DNA of 64,000 nt from Anaerolineae bacterium (GCA_025060615.1 JANXBS010000020.1:7319-71318), one strand, 5' to 3'; positions 20,621 to 64,000 are shown, counted from the stretch's first letter. Notes: generated by a model not told the origin, from the sequence alone. Made by a program: numbers and translations.

Positions 20621-20673
20621 TAGAAAGTCAACGGGTATCAGCAGGTAGCTTGTGGACTTGTAGGAGGACATGG

Positions 20674-22407: not shown

Positions 22408-22487
22408 GTCAGCGAGAAATTCAACTATCTCGTCGCCTTGCTGCCCGAATGCCTGCTATCTTCTTGACCAATGGCAAGGGGTCGGAG

Positions 22488-30570: not shown

Positions 30571-31317
30571 TCAGTCACTTGCCAGCCGCACCAGTTTCTC
30601 GCCGTCAATCAGCTCGATGGGCTTGCCGCGCGCCCAGCGGTGAGCCTGTGGCGAGATGTTGGCTGTCGTCACCAAATAGCCGCGGTCAGCTCCTTCATGG
30701 ATGATCACCGCATACAGGTCACGCACGATCGGCTCACCCACGGTGCCCCGATAGCGCTTACATTGGACGATGCCGCGCTCGCCATCCCGATCTACGATCA
30801 GATCAACCCCGTGATCGGCCGTATCCGGTGTGTTGATGACGCGATAGCCGCGGCGGCGGAAGAGCTCGCCTGTCCAGGCCTCGAATTCGCTGGGGGTGAG
30901 CTCAAGGAGTTGGGCCAGGGTGCGCGCTGCCCGCAGTTTCTCCTGGAGGCGCCGCCGCTCTCGTTCAGCGCGCCACCACAGCCATCCCCAAATGCCCCCT
31001 ACGAGGACCGTATGGGTGAGAAACACGGCCCACAGCCAGGATGAGGGGAGTAAGCGCAGGATGAAATCGAGCGGCCGACGGCCTGTGACAGCCCAGCTCA
31101 GGAAGAAGGGAAGATAGAGTAGGATCCAGGCGGCCGTCGCTATGGTCAGGGTACGCATGCCACGGCGGCGAACTCGCCGGATGCGAGCTCGCTGCCACGA
31201 GCGGCTTGCCGGAGGGGTGTAGTACGGCCCTAGCTCCAGACGAGCCTGCTCCTCTGGGTCAATGGTATCGGGGTCATATAGAGGAGAGAGCGATCGCTGC
31301 AATTCCTGCACAGGCAC
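30571..31317 (-). CDS. Membrane-anchored Mrr-type restriction endonuclease domain protein
   Basis: Two TM helices, then FE..T.ELF...GY, DHGVD, IVQCKRY, GYLVTT, IELIDG (Mrr_cat-like PD-QxK fold). Confidence 0.85.
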
Positions 31318-46522: not shown

Positions 46523-47320
46523 TCACCCCTGTTTCATGAACGCCACGCGAGCCTCATCGGCCAACAGGTACAGAGGATCGGCCTGGATCAGCGGCAGGAT
46601 GATCTCTCGCATTTGGCCGGCGTGGATCAGCCGTGCATGGGCCTGTCCCACACGCCCTTCCCGCATGGCTCCTGCCTGTCGCAACGGCTCATCTATTCGG
46701 GAGAAGTTACGCTTCCAGCCCCACAGGTGAAGCCGACCGGACACCACGAGCTCACGGCCATCGGCATCCACGACGATGGCGTGGGTAATCTGATACTGGA
46801 GGTGATACGGCACCCCAGCTAGCTCCTCCAACGCATGCAGGGAAGTGTTGCTCTCCTGCGTGCATCCCAGCAGCAGGATGTAGCCGCCACGATCCATCAG
46901 TCGGATGTACGGGCTGCCGGGACCGCACGGCGTGGTACAGTGCTCGTGGCCGGTCGTATACCATTCGGCCTGCGCGCCGATGGCTGTGACCGAATGCGTG
47001 GGATGCAGGCTACGGCGGGCTTCAGGCCGCCGTCGAAACGCCTCTGGAATGCGGCCGATCCAGCTCGCGCACGGGGTGGAGCGCACATCCATGCGCGGTG
47101 GACGGTCTGGCCCATCCTCCGGCGAGCCGGTGAGGGCCGGCGCCAACACCGTCCCGCCGGGCGATACCGCTGCGATGAGGGCGTCTACGACCGTGTCGGC
47201 GCCTCCTTCGACCCATCCCAGGCTGCTTAACGAGGAATGAACCAACACCTCGTCGCCGGGTCGCAGCCCCAGCGCGCGCAGGTCTGCAACGATCTCTACG
47301 GCCGTTAACCCGCGGTTCAT
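46523..47320 (-). CDS. AAC(3)/YokD-family N-acetyltransferase
   Basis: LVHSSLSSLGWVEGGADTVVDAL, GGTVLAP, SLHPTHSVTAIG, GGYILLLG...NTSLHALEE. Confidence 0.9.
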   Translation of the reverse strand: MNRGLTAVEIVADLRALGLRPGDEVLVHSSLSSLGWVEGGADTVVDALIAAVSPGGTVLAPALTGSPEDGPDRPPRMDVRSTPCASWIGRIPEAFRRRPEARRSLHPTHSVTAIGAQAEWYTTGHEHCTTPCGPGSPYIRLMDRGGYILLLGCTQESNTSLHALEELAGVPYHLQYQITHAIVVDADGRELVVSGRLHLWGWKRNFSRIDEPLRQAGAMREGRVGQAHARLIHAGQMREIILPLIQADPLYLLADEARVAFMKQG

Positions 47321-51955: not shown

Positions 51956-53721
51956 CGTCGATTGGAACGCTGATAGAGCGCGACTAGTGGCACTCCTTGA
52001 TAGTCCAATGTCCACACAGGCTGATGCTGCGCCATGTAGTCTACCACATAGTCGAAAAACGTCGTCTGTCGGTATTCGACGATGGCGAAGTCAGCCTGAT
52101 CCATGCCCCCCTCTGTCCACTTCACGCCGGAATCGTCGTAGAACGATCCCCACCCTGGCGGCCGGACCATCACCAAATCGTCTCGCAGTAACCCAGCCTT
52201 TTGATAGTAATACATCACATCCCAACTATTGGGCATGACCCATACCGTTGCTCCGGGAGCAGCCCGACGATTCAGCTCGGGCAGGACCGCCCGATAGGTA
52301 GACGCCCAGTAGATGGTCTCCAATTGCAGGCGATGAGCGCCGCGTACACCACCGATGGCCTCGTTGTAGTAGGCCAGCTCGAACGGATGCAGGCGGACGA
52401 TGGCGAGAGCGCCGGGCGCAAGCATGGCGATACCCAAGACGACGGTGAGGAGCTCGGGCCATGCCTTCCTCATAACGATGGGCGATGGGAGACTCCCGCC
52501 CGAGATCCGTCGTTCATCGTCTCGCGTACGCGCAAAAGCACGCGAGGAGAGCCAGCGTGCTGCTGTATCGAACCCTAGACCGACCAACGGCGCTAGAAAC
52601 ACATAGGTCGGCATAAGCAGGCGATCGCCATCGAAGGCGCGGCTGCTCGGCCGCATAAACCATGCCACGGGGAGCAGCGCCTGGATCAGCCACAGCCTGG
52701 CCGCCAGTTGCGTCGGCCCCGGCCGGATCCCCTGGGCCGCGCCGATCGCGGCCAGCGCCAGCAACGGGACCGGCACCGTCACCAGCACCGTAACGATTGG
52801 GAAGTGCCATGGTGGCTCTAGGTAGGTTTTGCCGAGGTAGTACTGGTAGATCTCGTAGTGGCTAACGGTGAAAAAGCGTGCCCAGTTGATCAGTTTGGAA
52901 CCGGTTTCCGACCAAAACCAAGGGAACAATACGATGAGTGTCAGCAGGCCCAGCGGGCCCATCAGGATCAGACGCCCCCACAGGTCCCAGCGTCGCCGCT
53001 GATCACGAGAGGCGAGCACCCACAGCACCACGCCTATCGAGGCCAACACGTTGCTGATCTTCGTGGCAAGCGCCAGCCCGAAGGCCAGCCCGGGCACAAT
53101 CCACGTCCACAGCTGGCTGAAACCTCGCAAGCTGCTCCAAGAAGGCTTCACCGTAGAAGGATCCTGGGCGTTTCCAGCGGCCTCCGTGATGAGGGTGAGC
53201 CGCCAGAAGACCCACACGGCAAAAAACCACAGGGCCGCCGCCGGCAAGTCCAGCCCTGCGACATGCGCGTGGAAGAAAAGCCGGGGCATATCAAGCAACG
53301 CCAAAGCTCCTACCAGCGCGCCGATCCGCCCAGCCCCGGCCTGACGCACGGCTACATAGATCCACGCAGCCAACGTTGCAGACAACGCCATCGGCCCTAC
53401 CCGGTGCGCCGTGGGCAGAGGAAGCCAATTTCGGGTCAACGCCCACCCCAACCCGCTGATCGCCTTGGCCAGGGGGGGATGCTCGTGGTTTAAGCCGAAG
53501 CTAAGGCCGATGGCCGTTGGGTTTAGTGACTCACTCACATCCCCACGGACCAACCCACGAATCAGCATCCCCAGCCAGAGGATGATGCGCTGGCCGTTTT
53601 CGGCGTAGACCGGCTCATCCCACCCGACGGCCAACGTCCGCTCAGTGGCGAAGAGTACCCCAAATACGCTGATGGCCAGGATCAATGCAATCCAGCGATC
53701 CTGATGATCCCACCGGCTCAC
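51952..53721 (-). CDS. PMT/ArnT-like (GT39/83) membrane glycosyltransferase
   Basis: GWDEPVY, NHEHPPLAK, FFHAHVAGLD, GLALATKIS, HPFELAYYNE; GTGA overlap with the upstream gene. Confidence 0.8.
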   Translation of the reverse strand: MSRWDHQDRWIALILAISVFGVLFATERTLAVGWDEPVYAENGQRIILWLGMLIRGLVRGDVSESLNPTAIGLSFGLNHEHPPLAKAISGLGWALTRNWLPLPTAHRVGPMALSATLAAWIYVAVRQAGAGRIGALVGALALLDMPRLFFHAHVAGLDLPAAALWFFAVWVFWRLTLITEAAGNAQDPSTVKPSWSSLRGFSQLWTWIVPGLAFGLALATKISNVLASIGVVLWVLASRDQRRRWDLWGRLILMGPLGLLTLIVLFPWFWSETGSKLINWARFFTVSHYEIYQYYLGKTYLEPPWHFPIVTVLVTVPVPLLALAAIGAAQGIRPGPTQLAARLWLIQALLPVAWFMRPSSRAFDGDRLLMPTYVFLAPLVGLGFDTAARWLSSRAFARTRDDERRISGGSLPSPIVMRKAWPELLTVVLGIAMLAPGALAIVRLHPFELAYYNEAIGGVRGAHRLQLETIYWASTYRAVLPELNRRAAPGATVWVMPNSWDVMYYYQKAGLLRDDLVMVRPPGWGSFYDDSGVKWTEGGMDQADFAIVEYRQTTFFDYVVDYMAQHQPVWTLDYQGVPLVALYQRSNRR

Positions 53722-56700
53722 GGCGTTTCCCCCACAGCGATTTCTCCCAGCATGACGTGATCCGCCGTTGGACTCCCAGTCGCATCCAACACCAGCAACC
53801 GTTCGAGCGAATCGGGACGATAGAGCCCGGCTTCTAGCAAATACACGCCGGCAGGAAGGTCTGGCGGTATCGTCAATCGGTAGCGATCGGCCAGGACCTC
53901 ACCCGGCAGCCAGCCGGTGGTGGGGAATTGCCCTTCGCCTGGCACCTGGTCCCTCTGGGCTACGACCGTGCGATCGGCGTCTAACATGTGCACGAAGCCG
54001 ATATGTGACACGTCCCATGTCCTCAGCGGTTGCCAGTACAGGGTGACCAGATACGTCTCGCCGGCCTTCCAGCGTCGCGCCGGCCGGCCGGCCTCATCGG
54101 TCAGGTCGCATCCCAACAAGATCACTTGGTTACTCAGGTTTACATCGAGGCGAAGCTGCATGGAAGGAACGATGAATGTGTGAGGCCGCCCACGCACGCG
54201 GATCGTGCCGGCTGATGCCCGGGCCACTTCCCGACCGGCCTCGTCCTGGATCACCAGGAACGCCTGATAGAGCCCATCAGACAGCCCTGGGGGAAGCAAG
54301 GCATTCCATATGTCGCGGACGATGGCGCGAGGAGGCCATCGTTCTGGTGAGTAAGCACCGCCTATTGGATGCGTAGACGGCCGTTCCCAAGTCTGACCCT
54401 GCGCATCCTGCAAGATTAATCGAACGTTGAACGCATGGGATGGGGCAACAGCGGTGAGGCGCTGCTTCTCCCCGGCCTGCCACCATAGCACTAGTGGCCA
54501 GGGCGCCCCGTCTGGAAGTTCATCGGCCTCATAGCTCAGGCCTAATAACGTGATATCGCCAGCTGCGAGGTCTAGCCGTTGTCTGATCTCCAGGCGCTTA
54601 GGATCGGCCGGAACCGGCTCCGGCCCGATGGTCACATGGCCAAGCCTCAAGCGATCGCCTAGTGGTGCGCCATCGCTCGCTGTGATCGTCAAGTTGCGCC
54701 CCAGCGAGGGCGAGAACAGCGCGATCTCTAGCTCGTAGGTGCCAGGCGGGGTGCCTGGAAACGCAGACACCGCCTGGGCGTCACGAATGCGCATTCCGGG
54801 TAGCCAGCGATCCAACGGCAGAAAGCCGTCCACCGGCGGCCGGTCGTGCCTGCCCCAGATGCGTCCAGCGCTGTCACGCAGCCCGACAAACACGCTGAGA
54901 TCAGGGACGGGCGGTTTCAACACTTCCCAGTACAGGCGCAGGTTGCCCCGTCCAGCCAGCAACGGATCAGCCGGCGGCTCCCAGCCGAGCAGCCTGATTT
55001 GCCCCTCGAACACGGCGTCAAGGGGGATCACGTCGGTAGGCAGTGGCCCTGGCGGCACCATCGGCCCCGGATAGACCCAGGCGTAGTCAATGCCCGCGAG
55101 CCTGACGGTAAACTCGGCCGGCTGCTCTCGAAAATACCGGATGACCTGAGGGGCTGGCAGGGAGCGCTGTACTTGATTGACATACAGAACCACATAGTGG
55201 GCCATCGCCCATGGCCAAAAGCCGTCGGGTAATTGCTGATTGAGCTCCATAGTGCGGCCGGCGAAGTACGGGTCCAGGACAGAGGGATACCAGGCCGCCG
55301 CCATCTGGTGCGCGGAGCCGTCCTGGGCCGATAGCCACTTCCCTGCCTGATCTAACCCCTCGCCGTTGCCGATCATGAGGATTTGACGGGCGACGGAGGC
55401 GCCGCCAGCGAGCGGGCTGTAGAAGGCCTGTAGATCGGGGAAAACCGACAGCAGAAAAGCCGCCTGAGCGATGGCTAACAAAAGTTGAGCGGTCGCAGAG
55501 GGGTGACGAGCGAGACGAGAAAGCGGACGATAGGTGATGGACGAGAGACAACGCGCGAGCGCATGGATGCCCGTGGCGGCGATCAGCGCCAGCGCGGGAT
55601 AGGCCGGGATCAGGTAGCGATCGAACTTAGTCTCCGCCATCGTCAGCCCGGCCATCAGCGCAACTAGGAAGATCAGCCACGCTGCGATCAACCCTGGCCG
55701 GTGAATCCGCTGCCGAGCGGCCGAGACGGCCATCGCCACGAGCGTACCCAGCACAGCCAATAACGTCACTGGCGAGGTGCGGAAGAGCAGCGCCAGCGGG
55801 TAAAAGGCCGGGCCGGGAGCGTCTACGGTTTGCCCTAAAAAGAACTGATGGCGCTCGCCCAGCTCGACCTGCGTGATCTGCGCGTTTATCTTTTGCACGA
55901 CGCTGATAGAATCCACCCACAGCGCCGGCCAGAGGGCGACCGCGGTGAGCACGGCCAGCATCACCCAGCCGACCAGGACCACCCCCAGCGTCCTCCATTG
56001 CCCGTTGTCCTTCGACCGCCGCTTATCGTCTATCGCCCATCGCCTTAAAACAGCCCAGCTCGCCACCACCGGCCACAGGATGAGCGCTGGCAGCTTGGTG
56101 ATGATCGCTAGCCCACCCAGGATGCCAGAGATAATCACCCAGCGTCGGCCGTGACCATCCAAATAACACAGGAAAGCCAACAGCGACAGGGTCATTAGGT
56201 TGCCCTGGAGCGCGTCGGTGGTGATCACCCGATTGTAGCCGAGCCAAAACGGCTCCAGTGCCAACAATACCGCCGCCATCAGCGCGATCTCCCGGCCGTG
56301 GACGCGACTGGCCCATCGGTAGATCAGCACGGTGCACAGCGAAGTGACCACGGCGAAGGGGATGCGGGCGGCAATGTAGTAGTCCAGGGATGGGTATGCA
56401 TCGCGTGGAAGGACGGTGATCTCCAAGGTGGGGATGGGCTCGCCGAGGACAGCGGACCGGCCGGCCAGCCCCGCGGCGATCAGCCATAGATTGGTGACTC
56501 CGGGATGGGCGCTGCCGTAGGTGTTTGCCCAATCACCGGCTTGCAAGGCCAGCAGAAACCGGGCACCGCGGCGCAGCCACTCCACGCTATCCACGACGAT
56601 GGGCTGGCCGATCCAGAGCAAGCGGAGCAGCAAGGAGATGAGGAACAGCCCAATTGAGAAGGCTAGAAGGGACGAAGAGCGGGAAACGGGAAACGAGAAG

Positions 56701-56822
56701 CGAGAGATGAGGGACAGAGCTTGTCGTCCCTGATCGTCCTGTTGTCCCGCTACCTCTGGCCTGTCGGTCAAGGCAAGCCTAGCTCCTCGCTGCCCCGTTC
56801 TCCCGTTGCCTCGTTGCTCCAT
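53718..56822 (-). CDS. PMT/ArnT-like membrane glycosyltransferase with three C-terminal beta modules
   Basis: HPGVT, LALEPFWLGYNR..TTD, LAIITKLP, TKFDRYLIP, QAFYSPL. Start moved to ATG 56822, 21 nt after the argS stop. Confidence 0.8.
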   Translation of the reverse strand: MEQRGNGRTGQRGARLALTDRPEVAGQQDDQGRQALSLISRFSFPVSRSSSLLAFSIGLFLISLLLRLLWIGQPIVVDSVEWLRRGARFLLALQAGDWANTYGSAHPGVTNLWLIAAGLAGRSAVLGEPIPTLEITVLPRDAYPSLDYYIAARIPFAVVTSLCTVLIYRWASRVHGREIALMAAVLLALEPFWLGYNRVITTDALQGNLMTLSLLAFLCYLDGHGRRWVIISGILGGLAIITKLPALILWPVVASWAVLRRWAIDDKRRSKDNGQWRTLGVVLVGWVMLAVLTAVALWPALWVDSISVVQKINAQITQVELGERHQFFLGQTVDAPGPAFYPLALLFRTSPVTLLAVLGTLVAMAVSAARQRIHRPGLIAAWLIFLVALMAGLTMAETKFDRYLIPAYPALALIAATGIHALARCLSSITYRPLSRLARHPSATAQLLLAIAQAAFLLSVFPDLQAFYSPLAGGASVARQILMIGNGEGLDQAGKWLSAQDGSAHQMAAAWYPSVLDPYFAGRTMELNQQLPDGFWPWAMAHYVVLYVNQVQRSLPAPQVIRYFREQPAEFTVRLAGIDYAWVYPGPMVPPGPLPTDVIPLDAVFEGQIRLLGWEPPADPLLAGRGNLRLYWEVLKPPVPDLSVFVGLRDSAGRIWGRHDRPPVDGFLPLDRWLPGMRIRDAQAVSAFPGTPPGTYELEIALFSPSLGRNLTITASDGAPLGDRLRLGHVTIGPEPVPADPKRLEIRQRLDLAAGDITLLGLSYEADELPDGAPWPLVLWWQAGEKQRLTAVAPSHAFNVRLILQDAQGQTWERPSTHPIGGAYSPERWPPRAIVRDIWNALLPPGLSDGLYQAFLVIQDEAGREVARASAGTIRVRGRPHTFIVPSMQLRLDVNLSNQVILLGCDLTDEAGRPARRWKAGETYLVTLYWQPLRTWDVSHIGFVHMLDADRTVVAQRDQVPGEGQFPTTGWLPGEVLADRYRLTIPPDLPAGVYLLEAGLYRPDSLERLLVLDATGSPTADHVMLGEIAVGETP
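55996..56044 (-). repeat. Seven degenerate heptamer repeats inside a CDS
   Basis: Minus strand: GGCGATG GGCGATA GACGATA AGCGGCG GTCGAAG GACAACG GGCAATG (RWAIDDKRRSKDNGQW). Confidence 0.65.
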
Positions 56823-56840
56823 CTCCTCGTCGCCTGTTCC
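56680..56840. repeat. Heptamer array (56680-56714) and octamer array (56785-56840) at the 5' end of a GT gene
   Basis: CGGGAAA CGGGAAA CGAGAAG CGAGAGA TGAGGGA; CCTCGCTG CCCCGTTC TCCCGTTG CCTCGTTG CTCCATCT CCTCGTCG CCTGTTCC. Confidence 0.65.
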
Positions 56841-56842
56841 CT

Positions 56843-58549
56843 TCACATGCGTTCGGGAGCCGTCATCCCCATCAAGCCCAGCACGCGCGCCAAGGTGATG
56901 CGCGAGGCATCCACCAGTTTGAGGCGTGCCCGGGTTAGGGCAGCATCGGCTGGGTCCGAGGAAAGCACACGACAATCGCGGTAGAAGGCGTGAAAGTTGG
57001 ACGCCAGGTCCATCGCGTAGAACGAGAGCTGGTGAGGAGCTAGCTTTTCCACAGCGCTCTCGATCACTTCAGGCAGTTCCAACATCTTGCGAATCAGCGT
57101 GAGCTCGGCGGGGTGGGTGAGCAGCGTCACGTCGCCAGTCTCCCAGCCGTCAGGGCCATCAGGCTGCCAGCCCTCTTCCTCTGCCTTGCGTAGGATCGAG
57201 CAGATGCGGGCGTGCGCGTACTGGACGTAATACACCGGGTTCTCATTGGTCTGGCGGGTGACCAAATCCAAATCGAAGTTCATAGGGCTGTCGGGCGAGC
57301 GGGTGAGCAACATGAAGCGCACCGGGTCCTTGCCGGGGATGGTCACCCCCGATTCGGGGTGGGTGATGGTTACCTCGTCCAGCAGATCGTCCAAGGTGAT
57401 GTAGTTAGCACGGCGGGTGCTCATACGCACCTGCTTCCCCTCGCGCACCAGGTTAATAAACTGATGGATCACCACCTGGATACGGTCGGCGTCGTAGCCG
57501 AGCGCCCGCACGCCCGCGATCACGTCGGGGTACTCGTCCTTGTGATCGGCGCCTAGGACGTTGATAATGCGGTGAAAGCCGCGCTCCAGCTTATTCACAT
57601 GGTAGGCGATGTCCGGCAGCCGGTATGTGGGCTCGCCGTTGGATTTAATCAGGACGCGATCTTTGTCGGCGCCGAAGGCAGTGGCCTTGAACCAGACGGC
57701 GCCGTCCTTGTCGTAGACGTAGCCGCGCTCGCGCAGGGCTTGCACTGTTTTCTGGATCGCGCTGGACGTATATAGATCGTATTCGTTGAACCACACGTCG
57801 AAGTAGATGCCCATGCGTTCCAGGGTGCGGCGGATATCGTCGAACAGCCAAGCCTCAGCGCGTTCCTTGAAAACCGGCCAGTCCTCCTCGGCCCAGGCGG
57901 TCCCCTGCTCTTCCACGATCGTCCGGGCGATCTCCCAGATGTAGTCGCCCTGATAGCCCTCTTCTGGGAACTCAGCGGGGCGCCCGATCAACTCCAGATA
58001 ACGAGCGCGCACGGATTGGCCCAGGATCTGCATCTGGCGGCCGGCATTGTTGAAATAGTACTCGCGGGTGACCTCGTATCCCGCAGCTTCCAGCAGGCTG
58101 GCGATGGTATCACCTAGCACCGCGCCCCAGGTGCGCCCAATGTGAAGGGGGCCGGTGGGGTTGGCTGAGACGAACTCCACCTGTGCCTTCTGCCCACGGC
58201 CGATGTCCAGGTTGCCCCAGGTCATGTTGGCCGCGCGGATCGTCTCTACTTGACGGGCGATCCAAATAGGCGCGAGGGTAATATTGATGAAGCCAGGGCC
58301 AGCCACGGCCACCCGGCCGATGTAGTCAGCGGGGGGCAGGTGCTGGACGATGATCTGGGCGATCCGAGGCGGGGCCATCTGGGCGGCGCGCGCCAGTTGC
58401 AATGCTACGTTGGTGGCATAATCCCCATGATCGGCCTGCTTAGGGTGTTCGACGAGGATGGTGGGTATCTCAAAGGGAGAGAGTTCACCAGCTTTCTGGG
58501 CACGACAGATGCCCTCTCGGATCAGCTCAGCGATGGCGTCTCGGATCAA
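56843..58549 (-). CDS. argS: Arginyl-tRNA synthetase
   Basis: HGDYATN, VEFVSANPTGPLHIG, EYYFNNAG.Q, DIAYH, MSTR, NPVYYVQYAHAR, MTAPERM. Confidence 0.97.
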   Translation of the reverse strand: MIRDAIAELIREGICRAQKAGELSPFEIPTILVEHPKQADHGDYATNVALQLARAAQMAPPRIAQIIVQHLPPADYIGRVAVAGPGFINITLAPIWIARQVETIRAANMTWGNLDIGRGQKAQVEFVSANPTGPLHIGRTWGAVLGDTIASLLEAAGYEVTREYYFNNAGRQMQILGQSVRARYLELIGRPAEFPEEGYQGDYIWEIARTIVEEQGTAWAEEDWPVFKERAEAWLFDDIRRTLERMGIYFDVWFNEYDLYTSSAIQKTVQALRERGYVYDKDGAVWFKATAFGADKDRVLIKSNGEPTYRLPDIAYHVNKLERGFHRIINVLGADHKDEYPDVIAGVRALGYDADRIQVVIHQFINLVREGKQVRMSTRRANYITLDDLLDEVTITHPESGVTIPGKDPVRFMLLTRSPDSPMNFDLDLVTRQTNENPVYYVQYAHARICSILRKAEEEGWQPDGPDGWETGDVTLLTHPAELTLIRKMLELPEVIESAVEKLAPHQLSFYAMDLASNFHAFYRDCRVLSSDPADAALTRARLKLVDASRITLARVLGLMGMTAPERM

Positions 58550-58603
58550 GGTGCTCTTGCCCTCCAGAGGGATTGGCTCTAATATGGGTTAGATTTGCCG
58601 TTT

Positions 58604-58646
58604 AGCGGAGCTGCCTTCCTGCTGAAAGAAGCGGCAGCGTACCGCT
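58604..58646 (-). other. Interrupted stem-loop at the 5' end of the predicted argS leader
   Basis: Nested pairings AGCGG/CCGCT, GCTGCC/GGCAGC and TTC/GAA, starting about 2 nt after the predicted +1 (58648). Confidence 0.45.
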
Positions 58647-58654
58647 TTCTGTGT

Positions 58655-58683
58655 AGTATACTGGCTTCGTATCAGCCAGGCAA
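58655..58683 (-). promoter_or_regulatory. Sigma70 promoter for argS (TTGCCT-17-TATACT) with a palindrome in the spacer
   Basis: Plus-strand AGGCAA 58678-83 and AGTATA 58655-60; CTGGCT-N7-AGCCAG at 58661-79. Confidence 0.6.
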
Positions 58684-58813
58684 GCCGCCCCCAGCCCTGG
58701 GCATATACACGATTTGTCCAGTGGGTTTTCGAGACATCTCTCGCCCATGCTGGCGAGGTGCGGAGGGCCCTTTCTCCGCATTCTATCTTTTATGCATCCG
58801 CCTCCTTGTAAGC

Positions 58814-58826
58814 TATAATTTGATCA
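58814..58826 (+). promoter_or_regulatory. -10 element giving a leaderless transcript
   Basis: TATAAT 58814-19 places +1 on the A of ATG 58826; no SD upstream. Confidence 0.6.
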
Positions 58827-59563
58827 TGCCTATTGCGGATACTCCTCTCCGGAACATTCAGCTTCTTCAGCAGGTCCGCCTCTTTCAAGACCTCAGCTCT
58901 GACGACTTGGCGATGATCATTCGAATAGCCTGGCATCGCCAGGTCGAACGCGGCTCCTTTTTCTTCCTTGAAGGTGAGCCGGCGACGCATCTCTATATCC
59001 TCACCCAAGGGCAGGTAAAGCTGGCTCAGCTTACGCCCGAAGGCCACCAGGTGATCTTGCGCTTCGCCTGTCCTGGCGAAATGTTCGGAGGCATCGCCGC
59101 CTTGGGGGCTTGGGAATATCCAGTCTCCGCCGAGGCCATGGACGATTGTCAGGCGCTGGCGTGGGATGGAGAGACGATGGCCCGACTCATGGAACAATAT
59201 CCACGCCTGGCCGTCAATGCCCTCCATCTGTTAGCTCAGCGCATTCAGGAGCTGCAAGATCGCCTCAGAGAGATGACGACAGAACGGGTAGAGCGCCGCA
59301 TTGCCCGCGCGCTGTTGAGGCTGATCCGGCAGGCGGGGCGTAAGGTGGAAGGTGGAGTGCTGATTGATCTCCCTCTCTCCCGTCAGGACCTGGCCGAGAT
59401 GACCGGCACCACCTTGTACACCGTCAGTCGAATTCTCAGCCGCTGGGAACACGAAGGCCTGATCGAGAGCGGACGAACTCGGGTCCTCGTCCGCCGTCCA
59501 CATGGCTTGGTAACCATCGCCGAAGATCTGCCCGGTGCCTCCGCTTCCGAAGAGCTCTTGTGA
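58826..59563 (+). CDS. Crp/Fnr-family regulator, NnrR/DNR-like
   Basis: cNMP-fold (GQVKL.Q...G..VIL...PGEMFGG); HTH LSRQDLAEMTGTTLYTVSRILSRW resembles the NnrR recognition helix; no FNR Fe-S cysteine cluster. Confidence 0.9.
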   Translation: MPIADTPLRNIQLLQQVRLFQDLSSDDLAMIIRIAWHRQVERGSFFFLEGEPATHLYILTQGQVKLAQLTPEGHQVILRFACPGEMFGGIAALGAWEYPVSAEAMDDCQALAWDGETMARLMEQYPRLAVNALHLLAQRIQELQDRLREMTTERVERRIARALLRLIRQAGRKVEGGVLIDLPLSRQDLAEMTGTTLYTVSRILSRWEHEGLIESGRTRVLVRRPHGLVTIAEDLPGASASEELL

Positions 59564-59589: not shown

Positions 59590-59632
59590 TTTGCGCTGGC
59601 GCAAAGACCTCCTCTCTGGTTTCGGATATCTT
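59590..59632 (+). promoter_or_regulatory. NnrR-type operator TTTGCG-N4-CGCAAA plus -10 TATCTT (class II promoter of nosZ)
   Basis: Perfect palindrome 59590-59605 (centre 59597.5); TATCTT 59627-32 gives +1 at 59639, i.e. centre at -41.5. Confidence 0.8.
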
Positions 59633-59695
59633 AAAAGCGAGCAATCCTTGCGCGGTGCTCATCCTGTCCGTATCCGATCAAGGGAGGAGGTCGTG

Positions 59696-61732
59696 ATGAA
59701 GAACAGGGCCTGGCAGAGGTATCTTCCCATCGCAGTCGTCGTCGGGATCGTCGCGGTCGTTCTGGCCGCCGTGTTGCTGATCATCCGACAACCGGCGGAA
59801 GAGGCGGCAGCCCCACAGGCCACTCAACCAGTGGCGGCAAACGTATCCGGTGACGCGGCGGCCATTGCTCAGGAACGCGGGCTGACGCCTGATGATGTAG
59901 TAGCTGCGCTGAAGACTTACGTCCCCACCGGCAAGCACGATGAGTATGTCATGTTCTCCTCAGGCGGCCATTCTGGCCAAGTCTTGGTCATCGGCATCCC
60001 CTCAATGCGTCTGCTCAAGGTGCTTGGCGTCTTCACCCCAGAGCCATGGCAAGGATGGGGCTACTCTAAAGAAACCCAGGAGGTCCTAGCCGAGGGCAAC
60101 GTCAACGACCAAGCCATCACTTGGGCGGACACCCACCATCCATCTCTCAGCGAGACGGATGGCGAGTACGATGGCCAGTGGCTCTTCATCGGCGATAAAG
60201 CCAACTCCCGCGTCGCTGTCATTGATCTACGTGATTTCGAGACCAAGCAGATCGTCAAGAACCCCATCGCCATCAACGACCACGGGGGCACCTTCGTCAC
60301 ACCCAACACCGAATGGGTGGTTGAAGGCGGGCAATATGCTACGCCGCTGGGCTGGAAGTATGCCTCCATCGACGAGTATGTCCAGAGCTATCGCGGCTCG
60401 ATCACCTTCTGGAAGTTTGACCGTGAGAAGGGTCGCATCATCCCGGAGGAGTCCTTCGCGATGGAGCTGCCGCCCTATTGGCAGGACCTATGCGACGCCG
60501 GCAAGAAGGTGAGCGATGGCTGGGTCTTCTGCAACTCCTTCAACACCGAGATGGCCACCGGCGGCATCGAGGTCGGCAATCCCCCCTTTGAGGCCGGCAC
60601 CTCGCAACGGGACATGGATTACCTGCACATCATCCACTTGAAGAAGGCTGTCGAGGTGGCGGCAGCCGGCAAGACGGAACTAGTCAACGGCTTTCGGGTG
60701 ATCCCGCTCAGCACCTCCATCGCTGAGGGGTTGCTTTACTTCGCGCCGGAGCCGAAGAGTCCTCATGGCGTAGATGTGGCACCAAGTGGTGATTACATAG
60801 TTGTCGGCGGCAAGCTAGACCCGCATGTGACGGTGTACAGCTTCCAGAAGATCTTAGATGCCATCGCCAAGGAGCCAGCTGAGAGGGACCAATATGGCGT
60901 GCCCATCCTCAAGCTGGACGATGTGATGGAAGCCCAGGTCGAGCTAGGGCTGGGGCCGTTGCACACCCAGTTCGATGACAAAGGATATGCCTATACCAGC
61001 CTGTTCCTGGACAGCGCGGTGGCCCGCTGGACGCTGGGCGGCCCATACCAGGAAAAACATAGCGAGCCCGCGTGGTCGCTGGTCAGCAAGCTCCCTGTTC
61101 ATTACAACATTGGCCACCTAGCAGCCGCCGAGGGCGACACCGTCAGCCCCGATGGCAAATATCTGGTCGCTCTCAACAAGTGGTCGGTGGACCGATTTGT
61201 GAACGTGGGACCTTTGCTCCCGCAGAACTTCCAGCTTGTGGACATCTCGCAGCCGGGCGACAAACTGCAGCTCCTGTACGATATGCCCATCGGCATCGGC
61301 GAACCACACTACGCCCAGATCATCAAGGCGGACAAGCTTAAGGCATGGGAGGTCTATCCGGAGATCGGCTGGAACCCGCGCACGCAATCGAAGCATCCCA
61401 ACGCGGTAGAAGTCGGCCAGGAGCGGATCGAGCGACGCGGCAACACGGTGGAGATCTGGATGACCGCTGTGCGCAGCCACTACACGCCGGAGCGGGTGGA
61501 GGTCAAGAAGGGCGATCATGTGATCTGGCACATCACCAATGTCGAACGTGCTCGCGATGCCACTCACGGCTTTGCGCTGCCCGGGTATAACATCAACCTG
61601 AGCCTAGAGCCGGGCGAGACAGCCACCATCGAGTTTGATGCGACGCAGGATGGCGTGTTCACATACTACTGCACGGAGTTCTGCTCGGCGCTGCACCTGG
61701 AGATGGCGGGATACTTCCTGGTGCAGCCTTAG
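59696..61732 (+). CDS. nosZ: Nitrous-oxide reductase, clade II (Sec-type, no Tat motif)
   Basis: FSSGGHSGQV, DTHH, NDHGG, PKSPHG, GPLHTQFD, GHL and EPHY CuZ motifs; CuA HGF...YYCTEFCSALHLEM; start ATG 59696 (SD GGAGG). Confidence 0.97.
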   Translation: MKNRAWQRYLPIAVVVGIVAVVLAAVLLIIRQPAEEAAAPQATQPVAANVSGDAAAIAQERGLTPDDVVAALKTYVPTGKHDEYVMFSSGGHSGQVLVIGIPSMRLLKVLGVFTPEPWQGWGYSKETQEVLAEGNVNDQAITWADTHHPSLSETDGEYDGQWLFIGDKANSRVAVIDLRDFETKQIVKNPIAINDHGGTFVTPNTEWVVEGGQYATPLGWKYASIDEYVQSYRGSITFWKFDREKGRIIPEESFAMELPPYWQDLCDAGKKVSDGWVFCNSFNTEMATGGIEVGNPPFEAGTSQRDMDYLHIIHLKKAVEVAAAGKTELVNGFRVIPLSTSIAEGLLYFAPEPKSPHGVDVAPSGDYIVVGGKLDPHVTVYSFQKILDAIAKEPAERDQYGVPILKLDDVMEAQVELGLGPLHTQFDDKGYAYTSLFLDSAVARWTLGGPYQEKHSEPAWSLVSKLPVHYNIGHLAAAEGDTVSPDGKYLVALNKWSVDRFVNVGPLLPQNFQLVDISQPGDKLQLLYDMPIGIGEPHYAQIIKADKLKAWEVYPEIGWNPRTQSKHPNAVEVGQERIERRGNTVEIWMTAVRSHYTPERVEVKKGDHVIWHITNVERARDATHGFALPGYNINLSLEPGETATIEFDATQDGVFTYYCTEFCSALHLEMAGYFLVQP

Positions 61733-61804: not shown

Positions 61805-62482
61805 GTGGTGATCCGGATGGAGACGTTGGAGAAGCTCGTCGGGCCACGTACACCCGCCGAGCAGATGGCTCAGGACCGCTTACGCTATCTACTTCCCACG
61901 GTCCTTCTGGGGTTGGCGGCGTTCTGCTTGCTGGTATCCATCTTTGTGCCCTACTGGCGTATGAAGCTACTGGCCCCGCAATACCCTCGCGGGCTGCAGG
62001 TGCAGGTCTACGTCAACCGGCTAGCGGGGGACGTGCGGGAGATTGACGGGCTGAACCACTACATCGGGATGCGCCCTCTGAGCGAGGCTGCCCAATTGGA
62101 GCGCTCGTTGAGCATCTTCGTCATTGCCGTGCTCTCGCTGCTGGTGATCGCGGCCATCTATGTGCACAACCAGTGGGCAGCCCTGTTGTCGTTGCCGGCC
62201 TTGCTCTTCCCGGTCATCTTCCTAGGGGACCTTTACTTCTGGCTGTGGAACTTCGGGCAAAACCTGGACCCGAAAGCACCGCTGAGCAGCGCTATCAAGC
62301 CCTTCGTGCCGCCGGTATTGGGCGAGGGGGTGGTTGGCCAGTTTCGGACGATCGCCGCGGTAGATCGAGGGTTTTATCTAGCCCTCTTGGCCTCTGCACT
62401 CATCCTGCTCGGCCTGTATTTCCACCGGCGCGCGTATAAGCCGCTGGTGGATGCGGAGCGCCGGCGTCCGGCCGAAGGATAG
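61805..62482 (+). CDS. nosB: NosB-like 4-TM membrane protein of clade II nos clusters
   Basis: PYW.MKL.APQYP.GL...IDGLNHYIGM...GQNLDP.APL; lies between nosZ and nosD. Confidence 0.75.
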   Translation: MVIRMETLEKLVGPRTPAEQMAQDRLRYLLPTVLLGLAAFCLLVSIFVPYWRMKLLAPQYPRGLQVQVYVNRLAGDVREIDGLNHYIGMRPLSEAAQLERSLSIFVIAVLSLLVIAAIYVHNQWAALLSLPALLFPVIFLGDLYFWLWNFGQNLDPKAPLSSAIKPFVPPVLGEGVVGQFRTIAAVDRGFYLALLASALILLGLYFHRRAYKPLVDAERRRPAEG

Positions 62483-62486
62483 TGGT

Positions 62487-64000
62487 ATGGAATGGCCTCT
62501 GCGCCTGACTCTGTCCGCATGGATCCTCTTATGCTGGCTCTGGCCGGCGCCGGTGCTGGCTGCTCTAGGGCCATGGCAGCCCCTCGTTGTCTCGCCGCAG
62601 GGGCCGTATACAACGCTGACCGAGGCCCTGGCCGTGGCCCAGGACGGCGATACCATCGAGGTGCATGGAGGGAGCTACTCTGGCCCCCTGACCGTTGACC
62701 GACGCCTCGCGCTCATCGGCTACAATTGGCCGGTGATTGACGGCGGCGGGCGGGGCACGGTGGTCAAACTGGCCGCGTCGGGCATCGTGTTTCGAGGCTT
62801 CGTGGTCCGCAACAGCGGCGACTCGTTAGAGGAGGAGAACTCCGGCATCGCCGTGGAAGCGCCTGAGGTTGTCGTCGAGGGCAATCGGCTGGAAGGGACG
62901 CTGTTCGGTATTTACCTGAGCCGCGCCCATGGCAGCTTGATCCTGGGCAATATGATCCAGAGTAAGGACCTGCCCCTGCCACGCCGGGGCGACGCGATCC
63001 GCATCTGGTATAGCGACGGCGTGCGCATTGAGGGGAACACGGTGGAGCGTGGCCGGGATGCCGTTCTCTGGTACTCGGAGGGCCTGGTCCTGCGCGGCAA
63101 CACGCTCCGAGGCGGGCGGTATGGCCTGCACTTCATGTACTGCGACGATGCCTTAATCGAAGGAAACGTCATCACTGACAACTCAGTGGGCGTATTTTTG
63201 ATGTATAGCCGCCGCCTACACCTGCGCCGCAACATCCTGGCCCATAACCGGGGTCCCAGCGGCTACGGCATCGGCCTCAAGGACATGGACGACGTAGTGA
63301 TCGAGGAGAACCTGCTGTTGGATAACCGCGTGGGGGCCTTCCTGGACAACTCGCCGCGGGAGATCGAGAGCATCGGCTTGTTCCGCCAAAACGTATTCGC
63401 CTTCAACGATATCGGCATCAGCCTACTGCCGTCGGTACGTCGCAACCATTTTGTGGAGAATAGCTTCATGGAGAACCAGGAACAGGTAGACGTGGCCGGC
63501 GGCGGGCAACTGGAAGGAGACCTGTGGACGGTGGACGGGCGCGGCAATTACTGGAGCGACTATGCCGGTTTTGACGCGGACGGCGATGGAGTGGGAGATG
63601 TGCCCTACCGGGCCGAGCGGTTGTTCGAGAGCCTGATGGGTCGGCATCCGGAGCTGAGGTTGTTCCTCTACAGCCCAGCGGCCCAGGCGGTGGACTTTGC
63701 CGCTCGCGCGTTCCCACTGGTCAAGCCACAGCCGAAGTTGACCGATGACCGCCCGTTGATGGCGCCGGTGATCCCAGAGGGGCTTCCTGCACTGCCTCAA
63801 CCCTCACGCCAGCCGCTGGGGATCGCCTCAGTCGGCCTGCTGGCGGTGACGGCGACGTTGACCCTCCTCGCGCGCCGCACGGCTGACCTTCTCCTCGTCC
63901 GCCGTTCGTCGCCCATCATCCGTTACCCCCAGTCAGAACGGGAGGCTATGGTACATGTGCGCGATCTGACCAAGCGGTTTGGCCCTCTGGTGGCCGTGGA
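62487..64000 (+). CDS. nosD: NosD copper-insertion protein continuing in frame through a TM helix into a NosF-like ABC ATPase N-terminus (3'-truncated)
   Basis: Absent from the ORF track because it has no stop in the window. Manually translated and open from ATG 62487 to 64000: signal peptide, beta-helix, RYGLHFMYC, GNYWSDYAGFDADGDGVGDVPY, TM 63816-63872, then MVHVRDLTKRFGPLVAV. Confidence 0.9.
   Translation, partial: MEWPLRLTLSAWILLCWLWPAPVLAALGPWQPLVVSPQGPYTTLTEALAVAQDGDTIEVHGGSYSGPLTVDRRLALIGYNWPVIDGGGRGTVVKLAASGIVFRGFVVRNSGDSLEEENSGIAVEAPEVVVEGNRLEGTLFGIYLSRAHGSLILGNMIQSKDLPLPRRGDAIRIWYSDGVRIEGNTVERGRDAVLWYSEGLVLRGNTLRGGRYGLHFMYCDDALIEGNVITDNSVGVFLMYSRRLHLRRNILAHNRGPSGYGIGLKDMDDVVIEENLLLDNRVGAFLDNSPREIESIGLFRQNVFAFNDIGISLLPSVRRNHFVENSFMENQEQVDVAGGGQLEGDLWTVDGRGNYWSDYAGFDADGDGVGDVPYRAERLFESLMGRHPELRLFLYSPAAQAVDFAARAFPLVKPQPKLTDDRPLMAPVIPEGLPALPQPSRQPLGIASVGLLAVTATLTLLARRTADLLLVRRSSPIIRYPQSEREAMVHVRDLTKRFGPLVAV

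What the first reader, a model, noticed from the sequence alone, without database searches (positions are those of the whole stretch)
59590..59639. Textbook NnrR box at exactly -41.5 controlling a clade II nosZ
Seen: aTTTGCG-ctgg-CGCAAAg, 27 nt after the regulator's stop; TATCTT -10 gives class II geometry. Known: the NnrR consensus is cTTTGCG-N4-CGCAAAg, and class II Crp/Fnr sites centre at -41.5. Inference: N2O reduction here is induced by NO through a proteobacterial-type circuit in a Chloroflexota-like genome. If the organism lacks nir/nor, it would be using neighbours' NO as a cue to scavenge N2O.
Basis: partly seen in the sequence, partly recalled or inferred. Interest (0 to 1): 0.75.

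Follow-up and report, generated by a model that had tools for sequence, protein, structure and literature searches.

The report
NnrR-type activator site before nosZ
A 16-base palindrome just upstream of a nitrous-oxide reductase gene in a Chloroflexota-like genome is a conserved docking site for the neighbouring NnrR-family regulator, so this N2O-consuming enzyme is probably switched on by a nitric-oxide-type signal: a known kind of circuit, here documented outside the Proteobacteria.

Summary
TTTGCGCTGGCGCAAA sits at 59590-59605, 26 nt after the stop of a Crp/Fnr gene. It is unique in the window and matches the published NnrR consensus.

It is not a chance palindrome. The same 16-mer lies upstream of nosZ operons in about 20 related genomes, mostly Chloroflexota. 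In 20 of 27 distinct sites a TAnnnT hexamer follows after exactly 21 unconserved bases. This places the box centre at -41.5 of a predicted class II promoter.

The adjacent regulator is 44% identical, without gaps, to Sinorhizobium meliloti NnrR, against 23% for E. coli FNR. Its recognition helix is almost the same.

A blind metagenome scan for the box returned 120 loci, and 36 encode a homologue of this regulator. Genes downstream of the box include nirK, nirS, nnrS, RIC-type hemerythrins and DUF1858.

The closest relative carries a second box in front of a DUF1858-hemerythrin operon just after its nos cluster.

So the NnrR-type circuit on a clade II nosZ is well supported. NO as the signal is inferred only. 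The idea of borrowing NO from neighbouring organisms cannot be judged from this window.

It is a new member of a known kind, of moderate interest.

The parts
58814..58819 (+). TATAAT -10-like hexamer 6 nt before the regulator's ATG, with no Shine-Dalgarno; candidate promoter of a leaderless regulator mRNA
   Evidence: Sequence. The same TAnnnT-N6-start arrangement occurs in L001, L007, L021, L022, L030 and L082. Predicted only.
58826..59563 (+). NnrR-family Crp/Fnr transcription regulator, 245 aa
   Evidence: cNMP_binding + HTH_Crp_2. 44% identity, 68% positives and 0 gaps to S. meliloti NnrR. The start at 58826 fits 245-aa homologues that cover 99-100% of the query. The longer TTG ORF from 58595 is an ORF-caller artefact.
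59590..59605 (.). 16-bp palindromic NnrR-type box TTTGCGC-TG-GCGCAAA; predicted operator of the adjacent regulator, centred at 59597.5
   Evidence: Unique in the window. Conserved upstream of nosZ operons in about 20 genomes. Co-occurs with regulator homologues in 36 of 120 metagenome loci chosen by the DNA pattern alone.
59606..59608 (+). Conserved GAC right after the box; it lies in the register of positions -33..-31 of a -35 hexamer (ttGACa)
   Evidence: G in 25/27, A in 25/27 and C in 17/27 distinct sites.
59627..59632 (+). Predicted -10 hexamer TATCTT, 21 nt after the box
   Evidence: TAnnnT at offset 21 in 20 of 27 sites, with background of about 1 per offset.
59639..59639 (+). Predicted transcription start; puts the box centre at -41.5
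   Evidence: Inferred from the -10 position. Not measured.
59682..59690 (+). Shine-Dalgarno GGGAGGAGG of nosZ
   Evidence: Sequence.
59696..61732 (+). Clade II (Sec-dependent) nitrous-oxide reductase NosZ, 678 aa
   Evidence: TIGR04246 879 bits, above its cutoff of 625. nos_propeller + COX2.
61805..62482 (+). 225-aa protein always found after clade II nosZ (nosB-like by position); no Pfam or NCBIfam family
   Evidence: A homologue follows nosZ in 76 of 80 loci. No family hit.
62487..64000 (+). NosD-like gene that runs off the window end; in relatives it is a NosD-NosF fusion
   Evidence: PF05048 NosD, E 3e-45. Open frame to the end of the window. L210 shows nosDF-nosY-nosL-cytochrome c after it.

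Best explanation
The palindrome is the operator of the NnrR-family Crp/Fnr regulator encoded immediately upstream.

**Mechanism.** A dimer bound at the box, centred at about -41.5, overlaps the place of a -35 element, of which only GAC remains. It recruits RNA polymerase to the weak -10 TATCTT. This is class II activation. It drives transcription from about 59639 through nosZ, the nosB-like orf225 and nosD (and, in relatives, nosF-Y-L and a cytochrome c).

**Regulator expression.** The regulator gene has its own promoter, possibly producing a leaderless mRNA, and no box. It is therefore probably made constitutively and switched on by its effector.

**Signal.** By homology to NnrR, and from the genes that the same box precedes elsewhere, the effector is most likely nitric oxide or a condition tightly linked to it.

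**Shown versus inferred.**
- Shown here: the site, its conservation, its fixed spacing to a -10, its co-occurrence with the regulator family, and the homology to NnrR.
- Inferred: binding, activation rather than repression, the TSS, and the signal.

**Sub-confidences.**
- Functional site of this regulator family: about 0.9.
- Class II activation: about 0.8.
- NO as the signal: about 0.55.

The overall confidence given (0.7) is for the whole statement, with NO as the most likely but unproven signal.
For: **Site**
- The box is exact and unique in the window.
- The same 16-mer lies upstream of the nosZ operon in L001, 2, 4, 5, 6, 7, 9, 11, 12, 20 and 47. One- or two-mismatch versions occur in L015, 18, 21, 22, 25, 27, 41 and 56.
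- 19-21 such sites are seen where 0.13 are expected.
- 11 of 13 loci with a regulator orthologue (at least 50% identity) have the box, against 8 of 67 without one. Fisher p = 4.5e-7.

**Promoter geometry**
- TAnnnT lies 21 nt after the box in 20 of 27 distinct sites, across an unconserved spacer.
- GAC is conserved at -33..-31.

**Regulator**
- Crp/Fnr architecture.
- 44% identity and 194 bits against S. meliloti NnrR, identified in pSymA next to nirK, nirV, nnrS and pseudoazurin.
- 23% identity and 70 bits against E. coli FNR, 27% against FixK, and E 5e-17 against DNR.
- Reverse search: S. meliloti NnrR hits these regulators best, and FixK hits them only weakly.
- S201 and R202 of the recognition helix are invariant in 120 sequences.

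**Link between box and family**
- A blind scan for TTTGCGCNNGCGCAAAGA in metagenomes gave 120 loci. 36 of them encode a homologue, and 32 of those lie within 700 nt of the box.
- One of these (L099) is an alpha-proteobacterial-type NnrR with NirK.

**Regulon (support for NO)**
Downstream of the box:
- NirK: L123, L134, L171
- cd1 NirS: L186
- NnrS: L188
- ScdA_N-hemerythrin RIC: L196, L207
- DUF1858-hemerythrin: L101
- DUF1858: many loci

The closest relative, L210, has a second box plus 21 nt plus TATACT before a DUF1858-hemerythrin-DUF2249 operon, right after its nos cluster.

The NnrR consensus and its NO-responsive regulon are taken from PMC1274295.
Against: - No experiment supports any step. 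The TSS, the binding and the direction of regulation are all predicted.
- The -10 TATCTT is weak, and the generic promoter scan did not call it.
- The residue at the specificity position (FNR E209 / CRP E181) is Tyr or Phe in this clade but His in the two alpha-proteobacterial NnrRs compared. Identical specificity is therefore inferred from the boxes, not from the residue.
- No His or Cys is invariant across the family apart from a Cys/Ser position. No obvious haem or Fe-S ligand set supports NO sensing.
- In Bradyrhizobium, nos depends mainly on FixK2 rather than NnrR (PMC5582078, title and abstract).
- The loci compared are related, so the p-values overstate independence.
- No terminator lies between the regulator gene and nosZ, so read-through could add NnrR-independent expression.
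Confidence: 0.7

Rival explanations
1. The site and the regulator are as described, but the effector is not NO. This clade of the family might answer to O2 or redox state, to nitrite, to N2O itself, or to copper status.
For: - The sensing mechanism of NnrR itself is unresolved (my knowledge; nothing fetched here addresses it), and there are no invariant His/Cys ligands in 120 sequences.
- Crp/Fnr regulators of clade II nosZ in Wolinella are reported to respond to N2O (PMC11539149).
- The exact box also precedes CusB/HlyD-like genes with heavy-metal-binding domains in L127, L145, L147 and L189, a cbb3 oxidase ccoN in L138 and an NrfH/NapC gene in L152.
Against: - Regulon members most often found behind the box are those typical of NO-responsive regulons in other bacteria: nirK, nirS, nnrS, RIC/YtfE-like hemerythrins and DUF1858 (with PMC1274295).
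- There is no FNR-type Cys cluster (sequence).
Confidence: 0.25
2. The box is used by a different Crp/Fnr paralogue encoded elsewhere in the genome, or it acts negatively as a repressor site rather than an activator site.
For: - Several box-bearing nosZ loci have no regulator gene within 4 kb: L004, L012, L020, L047.
- Crp/Fnr proteins with similar helices can share sites; FixK2 and NnrR do so in Bradyrhizobium (PMC6710368).
Against: - Box and regulator orthologue co-occur strongly (Fisher p = 4.5e-7; 36 of 120 pattern-selected loci).
- The fixed 21-nt distance to a -10 that lacks a proper -35 is the architecture of activation, not repression.
Confidence: 0.06
3. The palindrome acts at the RNA level, as a terminator or attenuator hairpin at the end of the regulator transcript.
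For: It lies 26 nt after the stop codon and could form a 6-bp GC-rich stem.
Against: - No U-run follows it, and the terminator scan did not flag it.
- The region folds no better than shuffles: z = 0.66, and 144 of 200 shuffles fold at least as well.
- There is no Rfam match.
- The arms are conserved in sequence rather than by covariation, and the box occurs without an upstream regulator gene in several loci.
Confidence: 0.02
4. It is a chance palindrome with no function.
For: None beyond the weak -10.
Against: (see above).
Confidence: 0.01

Closest known systems
NnrR of alpha-proteobacteria (Rhodobacter sphaeroides, Bradyrhizobium diazoefficiens, Sinorhizobium meliloti) and its box ctTTGcgnnnncgCAAag
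   Same: - Same protein subfamily: 44% identity with no gaps, and recognition helix TGTTL(H/Y)TVSRILS.W.
- Same 16-bp box. An alpha-type NnrR-nirK locus (L099) carries the identical 16-mer, plus a second box followed by 21 nt and a -10-like CATCAT.
- Same kind of targets: nirK and nnrS.
   Different: - Host phylum is Chloroflexota and others.
- The target here is a clade II nosZ operon, not nir/nor.
- Tyr or Phe replaces His at the specificity position.
- DUF1858 and split hemerythrin genes are the commonest first genes.
- In this window the regulator has no box of its own.
DNR (Pseudomonas) / NNR (Paracoccus): NO-responsive Crp/Fnr activators of nir, nor and nos
   Same: They work alike: an NO-dependent Crp/Fnr activator at FNR-like positions in front of denitrification genes, including nosZ (PMC1274295).
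   Different: - A different subfamily: DNR matches with E 5e-17, against E 6e-67 for NnrR.
- A different box (TTGAT-N4-ATCAA).
- The targets are clade I nosZ.
E. coli FNR class II promoters (site centred at -41.5)
   Same: Geometry: a 14-16 bp palindrome replaces the -35, and its centre lies 29.5 nt before the first base of the -10 (the FNR geometry itself is established knowledge).
   Different: - FNR senses O2 through an N-terminal 4-Cys [4Fe-4S] cluster that is absent here.
- Half-site is TTGAT, not TTGCG.
- Only 23% identity.
NssA/NssB/NssC of Wolinella succinogenes and relatives in Nitrosophilus labii
   Same: Crp/Fnr-family regulators tied to expression of a clade II nosZ (PMC11539149).
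   Different: They are described as having Dnr-type DNA-binding domains, occur in Campylobacterota, are reported to respond to N2O or nitrate, and are not adjacent to nosZ in the same way. No sequence comparison was made here.

Membership tests
NnrR subfamily of Crp/Fnr regulators | Crp/Fnr architecture: N-terminal cNMP-binding-like sensor domain plus C-terminal Crp-type HTH | tested here: met
   PF00027 E 2e-20 and PF13545 E 4e-19.
NnrR subfamily of Crp/Fnr regulators | Closer to bona fide NnrR than to FNR, FixK, CRP or DNR | tested here: met
   - S. meliloti NnrR: 44% identity, 194 bits.
- FNR: 23% identity, 70 bits.
- FixK: 27% identity.
- DNR: E 5e-17; best PDB hit is GlxR/Crp at E 2e-24.
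- The reverse search agrees.
- No full family tree was built, and NCBIfam has no NnrR model; even S. meliloti NnrR reaches no cutoff.
NnrR subfamily of Crp/Fnr regulators | No FNR-type N-terminal cysteine cluster | tested here: met
   There are only two Cys (C82, C108), none of them in the N-terminal region. C82 is not conserved.
NnrR subfamily of Crp/Fnr regulators | NnrR-type recognition helix | tested here: met
   TGTTLYTVSRILSRW against TGTTLHTVSRILSAW in S. meliloti NnrR and L099. S201 and R202 are invariant. Position 198 is Y in 100, F in 18 and H in 2 sequences. There is one substitution, at the specificity position.
NnrR subfamily of Crp/Fnr regulators | Conserved Tyr needed for activity (R. 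sphaeroides Y93, cited in PMC8510549) | tested here: inconclusive
   Y98 is present in 118 of 120 sequences and aligns with Y92 of S. meliloti NnrR. The R. sphaeroides sequence was not at hand, so the equivalence is inferred.
NnrR subfamily of Crp/Fnr regulators | Target sites match ctTTGcgnnnncgCAAag | tested here: met
   aTTTGCGctggCGCAAAg. The consensus of 27 sites is TTTGCGC-yr-GCGCAAA-GAc.
NnrR subfamily of Crp/Fnr regulators | Regulon holds nir, nor and nnrS | tested here: inconclusive
   - For the family: nirK, nirS and nnrS lie behind the box next to homologues.
- No nor gene was seen behind a box.
- In this window only the nos operon is seen, and there is no nir/nor in 64 kb.
NnrR subfamily of Crp/Fnr regulators | Activation depends on NO | not testable with these tools
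   Needs a reporter or transcript assay with NO donors and scavengers.
Class II Crp/Fnr-dependent promoter | Site centred near -41.5, overlapping the -35 position | tested here: met
   The box centre lies 29.5 nt before the first base of a TAnnnT. This spacing is kept in 20 of 27 sites, plus 3 at +/-1. The TSS is not mapped.
Class II Crp/Fnr-dependent promoter | Poor -35, so the promoter needs the activator | tested here: met
   Only GAC is kept, at -33..-31. The sigma-70 consensus scan finds no promoter here.
Class II Crp/Fnr-dependent promoter | Activator contacts RNA polymerase and raises transcription | not testable with these tools
   Needs in vitro transcription or genetics.
Clade II (Sec-dependent) NosZ gene cluster | NosZ matches the Sec-dependent model and not the TAT-dependent one | tested here: met
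   TIGR04246 879 bits (cutoff 625). TIGR04244 423 bits (cutoff 625). The N-terminus MKNRAWQRYLPIAVVVG... has no twin-arginine motif.
Clade II (Sec-dependent) NosZ gene cluster | No nosR upstream; a small membrane-protein gene (nosB) follows nosZ, then nosD | tested here: met
   - Upstream are the regulator and argS-like genes.
- An orf225 homologue follows nosZ in 76 of 80 loci.
- NosD follows.
- Calling orf225 'nosB' rests on position and my knowledge of clade II clusters, not on a family model.

The most novel reading that the evidence does not exclude
An NnrR-like regulon with one shared 16-bp box spans several little-studied phyla: Chloroflexota, Armatimonadota, Tectimicrobiota and Acidobacteriota. 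Its core is DUF1858 and hemerythrin (RIC-like) genes. Different lineages have plugged nirK, nirS or a clade II nos operon into it. In lineages such as this one, if they carry nosZ but no nir/nor, N2O respiration would be triggered by NO made by other organisms. The main environmental N2O sink would then be wired to a community signal.
Probability: 0.3. Interest if true: 0.65.

Novelty: new member of a known kind. Interest (0 to 1): 0.5.

Why it matters
Clade II nosZ organisms are thought to be a major biological sink for N2O. What turns their nosZ on is poorly known outside a few Proteobacteria and Campylobacterota.

This work gives a specific, conserved and testable circuit for a large group of environmental Chloroflexota. 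It consists of one regulator family, one 16-bp box and one promoter geometry.

It also gives a search pattern, TTTGCGC-N2-GCGCAAA-GA followed by 21 nt and TAnnnT. That pattern can be used to predict which MAGs couple N2O reduction, nitrite reduction and NO-damage repair to the same signal. It allows metatranscriptomes to be read with a mechanistic hypothesis.

I found no paper in the searchable library that describes NnrR-type control of nosZ in Chloroflexi/Chloroflexota. The mechanism itself is textbook, however, so the gain is in scope rather than in principle.

Tried and rejected
- **RNA hairpin or terminator:** rejected.
- **Other copies of the box in the window:** none. The only 2-mismatch hit, at 52521, is inside a coding region. 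The looser TTGCG-N4-CGCAA with 2 mismatches is no more frequent than chance, 24 against 39 expected.
- **Box in front of the regulator gene (autoregulation):** absent in the window. It is present in some metagenome loci (L125, L134).
- **NCBIfam naming of the regulator:** uninformative. No model reaches its cutoff, and the same is true for genuine S. meliloti NnrR.
- **pSymA annotation:** the plasmid table had no features. I identified nnrR from its ORF and its neighbours nirK, nirV, nnrS and pseudoazurin. S. meliloti's own nirK-nnrS intergenic sites are only 3-mismatch matches to the core.
- **Finding the window's own contig by exact NosZ sequence, to read beyond 64 kb:** not on record.
- **FNR-type TTG-N8-CAA boxes upstream of nosZ in the 12 loci that carry a different Crp/Fnr paralogue:** none found.
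- **nir/nor/nnrS homologues in the window and in the close relative's locus (L001), searched with S. meliloti proteins:** none.
- **Not run, as not decisive:** structure prediction and the second and third large protein searches.

Full report
**Observation**

The window reads ...TGA(59561-59563) aagatcaggcaaattcacccgtttta TTTGCGCTGGCGCAAA gacctcctctctggtttcgga TATCTT aaaagcg....
- The 16-bp palindrome is at 59590-59605.
- It starts 27 positions after the stop of the upstream ORF.
- TATCTT is at 59627-59632.
- If TATCTT is a -10 hexamer (-12..-7), the start site is 59639 and the box centre (59597.5) is at -41.5.
- The exact pattern TTTGCG-N4-CGCAAA occurs once in the 64 kb, and never in 100 dinucleotide-preserving shuffles.
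- With two mismatches allowed, the only other hit is inside a coding region.

So the finding is at the stated coordinates, and its arithmetic is right.

**Genes around the site**
- The upstream ORF (58826-59563) has a cNMP-binding-like domain and a Crp-type HTH.
- The downstream ORF (59696-61732) is a clade II nitrous-oxide reductase. It scores 879 bits on the Sec-dependent NosZ model (cutoff 625) and only 423 on the TAT-dependent model.
- After it come a 225-aa protein with no family (61805-62482) and a NosD-like gene that runs off the window. A homologue of the 225-aa protein follows nosZ in 76 of 80 related loci.
- The 59 kb upstream encode transporters, large membrane glycosyltransferase-like proteins, citrate synthase, galactokinase, arginyl-tRNA synthetase and similar functions. 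No nir or nor gene is present.

**Conservation of the site**

A scan of one genome per species with the NosZ protein gave 80 loci, mostly MAGs of Anaerolineae, Caldilineae, Ardenticatenia and Promineifilaceae. Some came from Thermoanaerobaculia, Calditrichota, Planctomycetota and others.
- The box with up to 2 mismatches in its 14 fixed positions occurs 24 times in these 748 kb.
- About 21 of these lie directly upstream of the nosZ operon. Chance would give 2.4 overall and 0.13 in those upstream stretches.
- The three remaining hits are what chance predicts.
- Eleven loci have the identical 16-mer, apart from the central two bases.
- The box-bearing loci are mainly those with the closest NosZ sequences, that is Chloroflexota, plus three Acidobacteriota. 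Loci from other phyla lack it.

**Conservation of the promoter geometry**

I aligned 27 distinct sites on the box.
- The 18 positions after 'GAC' are unconserved and C-rich.
- A TAnnnT hexamer appears exactly 21 nt after the box in 20 sites, and at 20 or 22 nt in three more.
- At every other offset it appears about once.
- The bases right after the box are G (25/27), A (25/27) and C (17/27). With a 17-bp spacer this is the GAC of a TTGACA -35 in the right register.

The site therefore replaces most of a -35 and keeps a fixed distance of 29.5 nt from its centre to the first base of the -10. This is the class II arrangement known from FNR. The -41.5 claim rests on a conserved architecture, not on one weak hexamer, although no TSS has been measured. 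The loci are related, so the formal p-values overstate independence. The unconserved spacer shows that the pattern is not simple sequence inheritance.

**The regulator**

Rodionov et al. (2005, PMC1274295) give the NnrR consensus as ctTTGcgnnnncgCAAag, and the window box fits it completely.

To test the protein, I fetched the nirK region of S. meliloti pSymA. The table had no annotation. The 231-aa Crp/Fnr ORF next to nirK, nirV, nnrS and pseudoazurin is NnrR.
- The window protein is 44% identical and 68% similar to it over 221 residues, without a single gap. The score is 194 bits, E 6e-67.
- It is 23% identical to E. coli FNR at 70 bits, and 27% identical to the FixK encoded in the same pSymA stretch.
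- Among solved structures the best hits are actinobacterial Crp/GlxR (E 2e-24). DNR is at E 5e-17. No NnrR structure came up.
- In the reverse direction, S. meliloti NnrR hits these regulators at 41-55% identity. FixK hits them at 27-30%.

The recognition helix is TGTTLYTVSRILSRW here and TGTTLHTVSRILSAW in S. meliloti NnrR.
- In 120 aligned sequences, Ser201 and Arg202 are invariant.
- The position equivalent to FNR Glu209 / CRP Glu181 is Tyr (100), Phe (18) or His (the two alpha-proteobacterial sequences).
- The loss of Glu at that position fits the change of the half-site from TTGAT to TTGCG. This is in line with the residue-base correlation described in PMC1274295.
- Tyr98 is present in 118 of 120 sequences. 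It aligns with Tyr92 of S. meliloti NnrR, probably the Tyr93 reported as essential in R. sphaeroides (cited in PMC8510549).
- There is no FNR-type Cys cluster.

The family is large. The 120 best database hits are all at least 59% identical, come from Chloroflexi, Armatimonadota and Tectimicrobiota MAGs and many metagenomes, and a few were named 'nitrogen oxide reductase regulator' by JGI.

**Link between box and regulator**
- In the 80 nosZ loci, 11 of 13 loci with an orthologue (at least 50% identity) have the box.
- The other two (L008, L030) have degenerate versions at the same place with the same -10 spacing.
- Only 8 of 67 loci without a nearby orthologue have it. Fisher p = 4.5e-7.
- Independently, I scanned the metagenome collection for the bare DNA pattern TTTGCGCNNGCGCAAAGA. 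Of the 120 stretches returned, 36 encode a homologue of the window regulator (34-71% identity), and 32 of these lie within 700 nt of the box.
- One locus (L099) is an alpha-proteobacterial-type pair: NnrR 55% identical to the S. meliloti protein and NirK 68% identical. Its nirK promoter has a second box followed by 21 nt and CATCAT.

The Chloroflexota sites and classical NnrR sites are therefore the same element.

**What the box controls elsewhere**

Among pattern-selected sites with a -10 at the right spacing, the first gene is most often a 70-90-aa DUF1858 protein that starts 33-36 nt after the box. Next in the operon, or directly behind the box, come:
- copper nitrite reductase NirK (L123 reaches the TIGR02376 cutoff; also L134 and L171)
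- a cd1-type NirS with cupredoxin and cytochrome c domains (L186)
- NnrS (L188)
- ScdA_N-hemerythrin proteins of the RIC/YtfE/DnrN type (L196, L207)
- a DUF1858-hemerythrin fusion (L101)
- DUF2249, OsmC, an NrfH/NapC cytochrome and a cbb3 oxidase subunit

Further contexts:
- In an Armatimonadota MAG, the regulator is followed by the box and by hemerythrin/DUF2249, DUF1858 and hemerythrin genes, with no nosZ nearby.
- In an Ardenticatenaceae genome, the order is regulator, box, DUF1858, three more genes, nosZ.
- In L015, L018, L021 and L022, a DUF1858 gene sits between the box and nosZ.
- The closest relative with more sequence (L210; regulator 84% identical) has regulator, box, nosZ, orf225, nosDF, nosY, nosL and cytochrome c. 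It then has a second box (TTTGTCCCAGCGCAAA, 21 nt, TATACT) before DUF1858, hemerythrin, hemerythrin/DUF2249, DUF488 and CopD. The same operon may lie just beyond the end of this window.

nirK, nirS, nnrS and dnrN/ytfE-like genes are the core of NO-responsive regulons in other bacteria (PMC1274295). This is the main argument, besides homology, that the signal is NO.

**Mechanism proposed**

The regulator is made from its own promoter. A TATAAT lies 6 nt before the ATG with no Shine-Dalgarno, so the mRNA may be leaderless. This arrangement recurs in several orthologous loci.

On sensing its effector, the dimer binds the box, sits where a -35 would be, and recruits RNA polymerase to the weak -10. 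Transcription then runs through nosZ, orf225, nosD and onward.

Shown here:
- the element and its conservation
- its spacing to a -10
- its association with the regulator family
- the homology to NnrR

Inferred:
- binding
- activation
- the TSS
- the effector

I put about 0.9 on the site being a functional target of this regulator family, about 0.8 on class II activation, and about 0.55 on NO as the signal.

**Rivals**
- **A non-NO effector is the serious rival.** No invariant His/Cys ligand set is seen. Crp/Fnr regulators of clade II nosZ in Wolinella are reported to respond to N2O (PMC11539149). The box also precedes CusB-like copper-efflux-type genes in four loci.
- **Use by another paralogue, or repression:** unlikely, given the co-occurrence and the geometry.
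- **An RNA hairpin or terminator:** rejected. There is no U-run, folding is no better than shuffles (z = 0.66), there is no Rfam hit, and the arms are conserved in sequence rather than by covariation.
- **Chance:** excluded.

**Comparison with what is known, and novelty**

The element works like, and by the tests available belongs with, the NnrR system of alpha-proteobacteria. It differs in four ways:
- host phylum
- target (a clade II nos operon)
- the Tyr/Phe-for-His replacement at the specificity position
- a regulon core of DUF1858 and hemerythrin genes

It resembles DNR/NNR control of clade I nosZ in logic, but not in subfamily or box. It shares its geometry with FNR class II promoters.

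Searches of the paper library found no description of NnrR-type control of nosZ in Chloroflexi/Chloroflexota. One metagenomic study noted an 'nnrR-like' gene next to one atypical nosZ on a CFB-assigned scaffold, without site analysis (PMC6264515).

I rate it a new member of a known kind. The interest is moderate. The mechanism is textbook, but it gives a concrete and widely conserved handle on what switches on N2O reduction in an abundant, uncultured group.

It needs the complete genome.

Noticed in passing
window 58790-58828; also L001, L007, L021, L022, L030, L082: The regulator gene appears to be leaderless. TATAAT (58814-58819) ends 6 nt before the ATG and there is no Shine-Dalgarno. The same TAnnnT-N6-start layout recurs in six orthologous loci.
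   Followed up: partly
L210 18159-18220 (closest relative, CAYRQQ010000016.1): A second box (TTTGTCCCAGCGCAAA, then 21 nt, then TATACT) lies right after the nos cluster. It precedes DUF1858-hemerythrin-hemerythrin/DUF2249-DUF488-CopD. The same operon may lie just past the end of this window.
   Followed up: yes
L093, L097, L109, L115, L123, L131, L133, L159, L165, L171, L183, L186, L190; also L015, L021, L022: A 70-90-aa DUF1858 protein starting 33-36 nt after the box is the commonest first gene of box-controlled operons. It comes ahead of nirK, nirS, nosZ or hemerythrin genes. Its role is unknown; the domain is related to the N-terminal domain of RIC/ScdA proteins.
   Followed up: partly
L127, L145, L147, L189: The exact box precedes CusB/HlyD-like membrane-fusion proteins that carry heavy-metal-binding (HMBD) and YHS domains. 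L147 and L189 also encode a regulator homologue, 6 kb from the box in L147 and adjacent to it in L189. This may link the regulon to copper handling, or another factor may share the motif.
   Followed up: partly
L026, L031, L033, L036, L043, L048, L049, L050, L055, L067, L070, L076: nosZ loci of Caldilineaceae and Anaerolineales that lack the box carry a different Crp/Fnr paralogue (23-30% identity) upstream, often divergent. No TTG-N8-CAA box was found upstream of their nosZ, so the site of this second candidate circuit is unknown.
   Followed up: partly
L013 4022-5053: A Dehalococcoidia MAG has a NirK 60% identical to S. meliloti NirK directly downstream of its clade II nosZ, and no box.
   Followed up: no
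L084 13070-15343, L210 13777-16140, L001 6632-9118: NosD and the ABC ATPase NosF are fused into one protein of about 760-830 aa in these clusters. The window's nosD (from 62487) runs off the end, so a fusion cannot be checked there.
   Followed up: no
window 13235-25904, 39458-42037, 47346-56975: There is an unusual concentration of very large membrane proteins:
- DUF2298/PMT-type proteins of 1572, 863, 585 and 1195 aa, the last with NHL repeats
- two DUF2079 proteins
- a GT87 protein
- a 1085-aa protein that was not put through a family search

This looks like a cell-envelope glycosylation island.
   Followed up: no
window 30571-31317 (-) and 46523-47320 (-): An Mrr-type restriction endonuclease domain protein and an aminoglycoside 3-N-acetyltransferase family protein (Antibiotic_NAT, E 6e-59) lie among housekeeping genes.
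   Followed up: no
window 58595-59563: The mechanical ORF list extends the regulator to a TTG at 58595 (322 aa). Homologues of 245 aa that cover 99-100% of the query show that the real start is ATG 58826.
   Followed up: yes
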